From Chiloscyllium plagiosum (Eukaryota), in the NCBI RefSeq assembly GCF_004010195.1, contig NC_057746.1, positions 10,519,457 through 10,583,456 of the forward strand: a stretch of DNA of 64,000 bases, in the 5' to 3' direction. The notes beneath the pieces are model-generated. The model did not search any database and had not been told where the DNA came from. It saw nothing but the letters and a program-made list of their open reading frames with translations. Both the position numbers and the translations under genes were made by a program. Below are positions 58,956-60,403 of the stretch, piece by piece. Each line of letters opens with the position of its first letter. The first letter of the stretch is position 1.

Positions 58956-59744
58956 ATGGATCTGTTTAGAGTGATGATCGCCGCTCCCTCTGGTGGTGAG
59001 AGGGGCTCTGCGTGTGAGATTCTTTATGCATGCCCGGACTCTGCCGCACCGCACACTGCCCTCGAAGCAGCTGTAAAGTGGACGAGTCTGTCACACACCT
59101 CCTTCTGGAATGTGCCTACACAAAGGAAATCTGGAGACGAATGCAGTGCTGCTTGTCGAGGTTCGTCCTGAGCAGATCCGTGACACGGGTATCCATGCTC
59201 TATGGTCTGTTTCCCCGGGAGGCACACCGAGACAAACATCAACTGTGCCTAGAGGATCATCAACTCAGTCAAAGACGCTCTTTGGTCTCTCCGAAGCCTG
59301 TTGATCTTCCAGCTGAAGTAGCAGACCCCGACTGAGTGTTGCGAACTGGCACATTCCAAGATCCAGGACTACATGTTGAGGGACGCGCTGAAGCTTGGGA
59401 CAGCCACCGCCAGGGTGTGGTGAGGAAAGGCCATCGTGTAACGTTTGCCTGCCAAAGAACAGGGGGCCCACGCAGTAAGTGGGCTCCACTGACGCCTCAG
59501 CTAAATGTATGGACATATGATTGGTAAACGTGCAGACTTGTATACACAAATGATAAATTCTGATCTCTATATGCAAAGAAATGGAATATTTACGTATGTA
59601 TGTCATGATCAATTGTACAGATCATCCAAATATTTTTTGAATAAAGTATACTTTTTAAATTAAAAATAATATCTGATCATTGCTCCCTCTGGGTCCGGAT
59701 CTCCCTCCTCATCGGGACATTTATCATCCTCAATGGAGGGATAG
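58956..59744 (+). pseudogene. MHC class II beta-like leader exon (exon 1) disrupted by a Tx1 LINE
   Basis: 59684-59743 encodes SLWVRISLLIGTFIILNGGI, a hydrophobic signal core resembling the recalled nurse-shark class II beta leader (SLWARISLLIATLVILNGG). It lies directly behind the X/Y promoter once the LINE is removed. The upstream ATG (58956) is out of frame and there is no GT donor at the expected place. Confidence 0.7.
58994..59673 (+). mobile_element. Tx1-clade LINE 3' fragment (C-terminal zinc-binding domain plus 3'UTR)
   Basis: CPRSSCKVDESVTHLLLECAYTKEIWRRMQ (zf-RVT-like), aataaa and A/T tail, and a 19-bp degenerate TSD at 58975-58993 / 59674-59692. Confidence 0.88.
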
Positions 59745-60403
59745 GAAGCGGAGCTGTTGAGAGATCCCCGGAGAGGAGCAGAACTCTGCACTGTTCGGGC
59801 AAGAGGGATCGCAGCTCCAGAGTTAGTGGAGATCGAGTGGATCCCGGCTATAATCAGGGGTTCTGCAGTTTCTTCCATGTGGGGGCAGGTCCTTGGACAT
59901 CACCGCTGGAGGACCTTGTAGTGATCTGCTCCCTCACACCATTTCTCAGACACAGTATCGGTCCATATGCCTGTCCTCACTTTCTGGCCATCTCCTCTTG
60001 ACTCCTCAGTCAACAATATCCTCGATTGGAAACTTATAATGTTTACATAGAAAGTCGTTAGCAACGCCTTCTGCGATACTTTGCATTTCTATCTCTACGG
60101 TTCACAATTTGGGTGGAATTTAGGGAATGGTTTGCTCCCTCATGTCCTGACGCATTGTCAAGTTTACGTTTTTAAACCCATCCTGGATTGAATATTGCGT
60201 GCAGATCTGCTCTCCTTGGTATAGGAAATATGTTGTGAAACATGAATGGGTTCAAAAAAGATTGACGAGGATGTTGCCAGGGTGGGATGGTTTGCGCTAT
60301 GGGAAGAGGCTGAGTAGGCTGGGGCTGTTTTCCTGGAACATCGGAGGCTGAGGGGTGACCTTACATAAAGGAACCTCGATTATCCAAATGAGATGGGCAA
60401 GCA

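What the first reader, a model, noticed from the sequence alone, without database searches (positions are those of the whole stretch)
58956..59760. Class II beta-like leader exon knocked out by a Tx1 LINE insertion with a recognisable TSD
Seen: tgatcgccgctccctctgg (58975-58993) and tgatcattgctccctctgg (59674-59692), identical at 16/19 positions, flank a 680-bp Tx1 3' fragment. Excising it joins the promoter to SLWVRISLLIGTFIILNGGI. The ATG at 58956 is out of frame with this peptide, there is an in-frame TAG just upstream, and atag^gaagcg at 59744 looks like a gtaagc donor missing its T. The assignment to class II beta rests on recalled similarity to the nurse-shark beta leader. This exon is invisible to the ORF track. 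If the partner beta gene is dead, the intact alpha exons must pair with another beta chain or act alone.
Basis: partly seen in the sequence, partly recalled or inferred. Interest (0 to 1): 0.7.

Follow-up and report, generated by a model that had tools for sequence, protein, structure and literature searches.

The report
LINE-split shark class II beta pseudogene
A 678-base retrotransposon fragment sits inside the first exon of a broken bamboo-shark gene, likely an MHC class II beta copy, whose uninterrupted relatives are still transcribed, so this is likely ordinary turnover in an immune gene family rather than a new mechanism.

Summary
The insertion is real. A 5'-truncated L1/Tx1-type LINE (58994-59671) lies between two copies of a target-site duplication: 58974-58993 (20 nt) and 59672-59692 (21 nt). 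Empty sites were found in RNA reads (5 reads, run X11), in run X5 and in a second species.

- The ATG at 58956 is the start codon of the transcribed copies. It looks out of frame only because the 5' duplication copy is one base short.
- The proposed donor at 59744 is not one. Transcripts run on to about 59756, where the window has TT instead of GT (inferred from depth).
- The alpha gene is not intact: frameshifted tail, 7 changes at conserved columns, and no leader or alpha-1 exon in the window.

The class II beta assignment is likely (about 0.8) but indirect. It rests on position behind an alpha gene, signal-peptide anatomy and expressed paralogs. No beta protein or downstream exon could be reached. 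Sample S2 carries both junctions, and the insertion looks old. Whether it killed the gene or hit a dying one is open. Verdict: an ordinary MHC birth-and-death pseudogene. Look-ups in the scan's notes found no earlier report of it.

The parts
58579..58891 (+). Promoter-like array of 8 same-orientation ATTGG (reverse CCAAT) boxes, two as CTGATTGG; TATA-like TATTTAAA at 58902-58909
   Evidence: densest CCAAT/ATTGG 400-nt window in the 64 kb (9; most windows have 0-1). A paralogous promoter contig aligns over 58605-58963 with 59 differences (X5 record 10). Function not tested.
58956..58973 (+). 5' part of exon 1: start ATG plus five codons (MDLFRV)
   Evidence: Empty-site joints begin at 58973 in X11 RNA reads and an X5 contig, in frame with the 3' part (frame check)
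58974..58993 (+). 5' copy of the target-site duplication, 20 nt, one base shorter than the 3' copy and than the transcribed empty sites
   Evidence: gapped alignment; letters between joints
58994..59671 (+). 678-nt 5'-truncated L1/Tx1-type LINE in sense orientation: ORF2 C-terminus to the stop at 59441 (3 internal stops, 2 frameshifts), 3' UTR, AATAAA 59640-59645, A-rich tail 59657-59671; likely 4-nt microhomology with the target at 58990-58993
   Evidence: poly(A) loose ends at 59666. The microhomology is inferred from the P0029 protein frame only.
59672..59692 (+). 3' copy of the target-site duplication, 21 nt, full length
59693..59756 (+). Rest of exon 1: hydrophobic core (ISLLIGTFIIL, Kyte-Doolittle mean 2.75) and small-residue end (GSGA); inferred phase-1 exon end at 59756
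   Evidence: RNA reads and high-depth X5 contigs cover to about 59756 and stop
59757..59762 (+). Inferred dead splice donor (TTGAGA where a GT donor is expected)
   Evidence: The base in intact copies was not displayed.
30535..30816 (+). MHC class II alpha-2 (C1-set) exon of the neighbouring decayed alpha gene; splice sites intact
41162..41334 (+). Class II alpha connecting-piece/TM/tail exon; tail 7 nt short of the paralog pattern, so the frame runs past the usual stop at 41298-41300

Best explanation
This is the first (signal-peptide) exon of a dead gene copy, likely an MHC class II beta gene, split by a 678-base LINE fragment between two copies of a 21-base target-site duplication. SHOWN: element, duplication, empty sites in transcribed relatives and in a second species, start codon and frame, both junctions in sample S2, and decay of the alpha gene upstream. 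INFERRED mechanism: an L1/Tx1-type LINE inserted by target-primed reverse transcription after codon 6 of an exon that was still in frame, was truncated at its 5' end, and put stops and its own poly(A) signal ahead of the signal-peptide core. That alone would make a null. The 5' duplication copy then lost a base, both copies drifted (partly CpG decay), and the donor at 59757 is inferred to have lost its GT at an unknown time. The alpha gene 18 kb upstream likely decayed as the partner of the same alpha-beta pair, while other pairs supply class II. The insertion is likely old and fixed or common. It is likely among the early lesions, but the order is not shown.
For: TSD and LINE. EMPTY SITES: 5 RNA reads 58973->59682 in X11; X5 contig 58973->59694 at depth 782; X9 (organism B) contig 58993->59694 at depth 4. 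EXPRESSED RELATIVES: 13 X11 reads on the exon's 3' half, all with other letters at 59726, 59742 and 59746. X5 depth is 5,930 in the exon bin against 12-52 in the promoter and intron bins. BETA POSITION: 6 of 7 class II beta rows in three elasmobranch genomes lie downstream of a same-strand alpha gene (PMC10751288 supplement rows), and the class II region is described as holding only alpha and beta genes. The leader is not alpha-like: an HMM of 22 alpha N-termini has no hit here. ALPHA DECAY: 7 departures at columns conserved in at least 22 of 26 sequences, including Y>C, and G>A in the TM; median of the others is about 3. The tail is frameshifted. The public model P0001 lacks Pfam MHC_II_alpha. 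Its sister P0003 (Hemiscyllium; support 98/91) lacks a normal leader. AGE: the two TSD copies differ at 4 substitutions plus 1 indel; the LINE has 3 stops and 2 frameshifts; X5 records 11 and 15 span the two junctions with 1 and 2 differences; one organism-B contig joins LINE 3' UTR-like DNA to the exon (59592->59704, depth 14.5).
Against: No direct link of the leader to a beta chain: searches found 0 hits, one search did not display the loose ends at the exon end (834 not shown), and no beta exon was found in 59757-64000 (51 ORFs; C1-set HMM). The exon end and the dead donor rest on depth arithmetic. An end at 59750 with a chance extension is less likely but not excluded. The alpha-1 exon could lie left of the window, since alpha genes span 22-96 kb. 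Two other sequences score as high or higher on the conserved-column count (P0004 7, nurse-shark P0020 11), so that count is not decisive alone. Only 1 of the 4 holder samples was laid. The organism-B joint is one contig at 80% likeness with a 45-letter side.
Confidence: 0.75

Rival explanations
1. Same insertion and anatomy, but the exon is the leader of another MHC-linked secreted or membrane gene (class I, beta-2-microglobulin or other), not class II beta.
For: No sequence match to any beta chain was obtained. Class Ia, class Ib and b2m genes lie next to the class II region in elasmobranchs. Phase-1 leader exons are common (established knowledge).
Against: Position directly behind a same-strand class II alpha matches 6 of 7 beta rows. 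The family has several copies with variant leaders, as shark beta genes do.
Confidence: 0.13
2. The gene was already dead and the LINE is a passenger, so 'knocked out by' is wrong. This concerns order only and is compatible with beta identity.
For: Other lesions exist: the inferred donor loss, and decay of the alpha partner in two genera. Exon insertions fix most easily in dead genes (inference).
Against: The pre-insertion exon was in frame. About 5 changes between the two TSD copies are post-insertion, against at least 3 displayed differences in 64 nt between this exon and expressed copies, so much of the divergence seems to postdate the insertion (small numbers, truncated table).
Confidence: 0.35
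3. The insertion is a segregating null allele of an otherwise functional beta locus.
For: Shark class II haplotypes differ in gene content and segregate like alleles. Organism B showed both an empty and an apparently filled copy.
Against: The displayed empty-site contigs carry paralog-level differences (record 22: 26 other letters and 16 gap letters over about 200 nt), not allele-level ones. S2 has both junctions almost unchanged. Samples S1-S4 hold 0.46-0.77 of the words, roughly in step with assembly size. The decay looks old.
Confidence: 0.08
4. The flanking repeats are chance and the peptide is a non-genic coincidence.
For: The TSD copies are only 16/19 alike, and 13 of 3000 random pairs reach this.
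Against: Empty sites in three runs join exactly across the element and keep the frame, and relatives are transcribed.
Confidence: 0.01

Closest known systems
Elasmobranch MHC class II beta genes, DBB lineage, paired with DBA alpha genes (PMC8010645; catshark loci PMC9992475; gene order PMC10751288)
   Same: Lies downstream of a same-strand class II alpha whose alpha-2 exon fits the published DBA primers (21/22 and 19/21 by eye). Separate signal-peptide exon. Multi-copy, expressed family.
   Different: This copy is interrupted and appears to have no GT donor. Identity of the leader with beta leaders was not tested directly. The supplementary FASTA files of PMC8010645 that could settle it were unreadable.
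MHC birth-and-death pseudogenes, such as the primate DRB2 pseudogene (PMC12674619)
   Same: Duplicated class II copy left as a decaying remnant beside functional copies.
   Different: Shark lineage; here the lesion is an exonic LINE with a readable target-site duplication.
Dimorphic transposable-element insertions in the human class II region (PMC8193847, abstract)
   Same: Retroelement insertions in the class II region that can mark haplotypes.
   Different: The abstract lists 42 Alu/SVA/LTR/MER/mosaic indels that segregate. This one is in coding sequence and shows no sign of segregating.
L1/Tx1 group non-LTR retrotransposons (P0029; human L1 ORF2p 8SXT; Tx1 families in PMC4494074)
   Same: C-terminal zf-RVT, poly(A) end, 5' truncation, target-site duplication.
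   Different: The duplication does not begin with an A-run as typical mammalian L1 sites do (recalled). The target is not one of the Tx1 targets named in the passages read (U2 snRNA, TC/TTC repeats). No RT domain is present, so the subclade was not placed.

Membership tests
MHC class II beta gene | Leader exon encoding a signal peptide, phase-1 end | tested here: met
   Hydrophobic core, small-residue end, 103 coding nt to 59756 = phase 1. The exon end is inferred from depth. The feature is not specific to beta.
MHC class II beta gene | Leader sequence homologous to shark beta leaders | tested here: inconclusive
   0 hits (short query, low power). No shark beta leader text found in papers or supplements.
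MHC class II beta gene | Beta-1 exon (PF00969) and beta-2 C1-set exon downstream | not testable with these tools
   None in the 4.2 kb left of the window edge. No genome held. Beta genes span 15-64 kb.
MHC class II beta gene | Linkage to a class II alpha gene, usually downstream on the same strand | tested here: met
   Alpha exons at 30.5 and 41.2 kb on +; pattern in 6 of 7 beta rows
MHC class II beta gene | S-X-Y promoter module | tested here: inconclusive
   Two CTGATTGG boxes within an 8-box array. An X-like motif was seen by eye at 58637-58649 against a recalled consensus. Spacing was not tested against a sourced consensus. Module described in PMC6155461.
MHC class II alpha leader | Similarity to elasmobranch alpha leaders | tested here: not met
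   HMM from 22 full-length alpha N-termini and tblastn give no hit at this exon
L1/Tx1 group LINE | ORF2 C-terminal CCHC zinc finger and L1-like RT in full-length relatives | tested here: met
   zf-RVT E 0.0024 in the window piece (below the Pfam cut-off) and 2.4e-10 in P0029. P0029 hits L1 ORF2p at 8.5e-12.
L1/Tx1 group LINE | Poly(A) 3' end, 5' truncation, target-site duplication | tested here: met
Tx1 subclade | RT-domain phylogeny with named Tx1 elements | not tested
The fragment has no RT domain and no named Tx1 reference was fetched.
Pseudogene | Disabling lesions and no intact transcript | tested here: met
   Exonic insertion with stops and a poly(A) signal. 0 of 351 laid X11 reads were 99% alike or more, but only about 2 in 100 of that run was read.

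The most novel reading that the evidence does not exclude
The LINE-bearing alpha-beta pair is an ancient null haplotype that still segregates across species. A second species shows both an empty and an apparently filled copy, and shark class II gene sets are known to segregate like alleles. Its CCAAT-rich promoter may still fire into the LINE, giving a short chimeric RNA that ends at the LINE poly(A) signal: the locus-specific contig over promoter and LINE has depth 40 against 8-11 on the flanks in X5.
Probability: 0.08. Interest if true: 0.5.

Novelty: new member of a known kind. Interest (0 to 1): 0.2.

Why it matters
Modest. It shows that one annotated bamboo-shark class II alpha 'gene' and its likely beta neighbour are a dead pair, which matters for copy counts and for primer design in shark MHC typing. 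The insertion is a clean presence/absence marker for dating the loss of this pair among bamboo sharks and their relatives. It does not point to an unusual alpha chain or new biology. It would matter more only if the null haplotype segregates.

Tried and rejected
Genome and protein searches:
- Whole genome: none held.
- Leader against protein collections: 4 candidates, none at E<=10; 0 hits among 1.84 billion representatives; no usable Atlas hit. All are low-power for a 30-41 aa query, so none is evidence against.
- Metagenome scan with a 20-mer: 11 loci, none matching beyond 20-24 nt, treated as chance.
- Pfam on 51 ORFs of 45 aa or more ending at or after 59700, plus 4 others: no MHC family.
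- Rfam: 0 matches.

Literature:
- Peptide words in full text or supplements gave no shark leader.
- Searches listed no paper describing this pseudogene or insertion. The library lacks most subscription papers, including Ma et al. 2013 on bamboo-shark class II beta (cited, not read).

Sequencing runs:
- No RNA holder was listed for the stretch; this is no evidence either way.
- X15 had no contig on the promoter or on the exon's 3' half; uninformative.

Readings rejected:
- Donor at 59744: RNA reads run through it.
- Upstream alternative start or a lost ATG: empty-site reads are in frame with 58956.
- Head-to-head partner of the alpha gene: strand and order do not fit.
- 'Alpha acts alone'.

Scan notes gave nothing relevant.

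Full report
Setting. The window holds a class II alpha-2 exon (30535-30816) whose translation is 100% identical to a named Chiloscyllium plagiosum model, P0001, and a TM/tail exon at 41162. By eye the alpha-2 exon fits the published DBA-lineage primers. No genome is held for the window, so everything beyond base 64000 is out of reach.

The insertion. Between them is the sense-strand 3' end of a LINE. The one homolog found (1 of 81 candidates), P0029, carries zf-RVT and hits human L1 ORF2p at 8.5e-12. It aligns to 59039-59438 at 70-74%, and the frame continues back to 58990, overlapping the last 4 nt of the 5' repeat. That overlap is a likely 5'-truncation microhomology, inferred from protein only. 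The piece has 3 stops and 2 frameshifts. After the ORF2 stop at 59441 come a 3' UTR, AATAAA (59640-59645) and an A-rich tail to 59671; 31 RNA reads of the family show poly(A) at 59666. The L1/Tx1 group is therefore shown. The Tx1 subclade was not tested.

Empty sites. I laid 4 of the 24 listed runs on 58500-60200 at 80% likeness. Three show joints across the element: 5 RNA reads in X11 (58973 to 59682, 10 letters between), one X5 contig at depth 782 (58973 to 59694) and one contig of organism B (58993 to 59694, depth 4). The first two restore 21 nt between 58973 and 59693. The duplication is thus 21 nt; the 3' copy (59672-59692) is full length and the 5' copy (58974-58993) is one base short. 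With the 3' copy the ATG at 58956 is in frame with the hydrophobic peptide, so it is the start codon.

Exon end. All 13 RNA reads over 59742-59746 (2 plus 11) run through the proposed donor with other letters at 59742 and 59746. Depth in the bin starting at 59754 equals about 3 bases per read in X11 (6 bases for 2 reads, 29 for 11) and in the high-depth X5 contigs (473 observed, 461 expected for 3 bases). That puts the end at 59756, giving 103 coding nt, phase 1. The next six bases are TTGAGA, one change from a consensus GT donor. This is inference: the intact base was not displayed, and an end at 59750 with chance extension is not fully excluded.

Which gene. Direct tests failed for lack of power or material, no shark beta leader was found in text, and no beta exon was found in the remaining 4.2 kb. 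The indirect case has four parts. The exon has signal-peptide anatomy. It does not resemble 22 alpha N-termini. The family has several copies and is expressed: X5 depth is 5,930 in the exon bin against 12-52 in promoter and intron bins. X5's kind is not on record, and I infer an RNA-rich library with genomic background. [quoted passage not shown] I put beta identity at about 0.8.

The alpha neighbour is decayed. No alpha leader or alpha-1 exon is found in the window, and the public model fills the gap with non-homologous sequence from 27749 and lacks Pfam MHC_II_alpha. The tail is 7 nt short of the pattern in the paralogs and reads past the usual stop. It departs from the majority at 7 columns conserved in at least 22 of 26 sequences, including a new Cys where 25 of 25 others have Tyr and loss of a TM Gly. 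P0004 (7) and the other-lineage P0020 (11) score as high, so this count only supports. In a tree of 26 of the 28 hits (P0019 and P0026 left out as atypical models; alpha-2 plus TM, 129 columns) its sister is the Hemiscyllium model P0003 (98/91), which also lacks a normal leader. The caveat is that alpha-1 could lie left of the window.

Age and polymorphism. The duplication copies differ at 4 substitutions and 1 indel, two of them consistent with CpG decay. In sample S2, record 11 (58774-59072, 1 difference) and record 15 (59573-60200, 2 differences) span the two junctions. Samples S1-S4 hold 0.46-0.77 of the words, roughly in step with assembly size; only S2 was laid, and any one holder could be the assembly's source. 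One organism-B contig joins a 45-letter LINE 3' UTR-like match to the exon (59592 to 59704, depth 14.5), a weak sign that the insertion predates the species split. No displayed empty-site contig has allele-level flanks, but 53 joints and 5859 pieces were not shown. For expression of this copy, 0 of 351 X11 reads were 99% alike or more (about 2 in 100 of the run read). In X5 the promoter-to-LINE contig has depth 40 against 8-11 nearby, a lead only.

Mechanism. Shown: an exonic LINE with stops and a poly(A) signal ahead of the signal-peptide core, and intact expressed relatives. [quoted passage not shown] Whether the LINE was the first lesion is open; I lean slightly to early.

Comparison and verdict. 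This is birth-and-death evolution of MHC genes in a group with known class II copy-number variation. My searches listed no description of this copy. It is a new member of a known kind, interest 0.2.

Papers seen. PMC8010645: parts 2-4 of 7, passages, supplement list and search; its FASTA files could not be read and bear on identity. PMC9992475: abstract, sections 7 and 13, supplement search. PMC10751288: passages and supplement rows. PMC7677710, PMC4494074, PMC6155461, PMC12674619: passages. PMC8193847: abstract. PMC4219347, PMC8713811, PMC10768021: supplement searches only.

Noticed in passing
window 58579-58891: Eight same-orientation ATTGG boxes 25-83 nt apart, the densest such cluster in the window, where a mammalian class II promoter is recalled to have one Y box. 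A paralogous promoter contig (X5 record 10, about 17% different) aligns across it. An X-like motif (58637-58649) precedes a Y-like box at 58667 (by eye, recalled consensus). Shark class II promoter architecture may be worth a look; one search listed no paper on it.
   Followed up: partly
window 27749-27805, 30535-30816, 41162-41334: The public 184-aa class II alpha model P0001 starts with non-homologous sequence, has no alpha-1 domain and has a frameshifted tail; it is likely a pseudogene annotated as protein-coding.
   Followed up: yes
protein P0003 (Hemiscyllium), residues 1-48: Sister of the window's alpha. Its N-terminus is not a leader and looks like LINE endonuclease sequence (recalled motif; Pfam gave no hit there), suggesting that this alpha copy is also decayed in a second genus.
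   Followed up: partly
run X9 (organism B), joint 58993->59694: The empty-site copy in the second species has a short extra, repeat-like stretch in the leader whose length keeps the frame (12 or 18 nt, depending on how the printed letters are counted).
   Followed up: no
run X11, window 59455-59666: The LINE family is abundant in polyadenylated RNA (3' UTR depth up to about 100, poly(A) loose ends), so some members are transcribed.
   Followed up: no
window 36857-37474 (-): 205-aa frame with a weak GIY-YIG hit (E 0.0006, below the Pfam cut-off), likely a Penelope-type element remnant (recalled association).
   Followed up: no
window 40134-40529 and 10096-10135: Degenerate CA-rich microsatellite inside the alpha intron, and a 40-nt G-rich run.
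   Followed up: no
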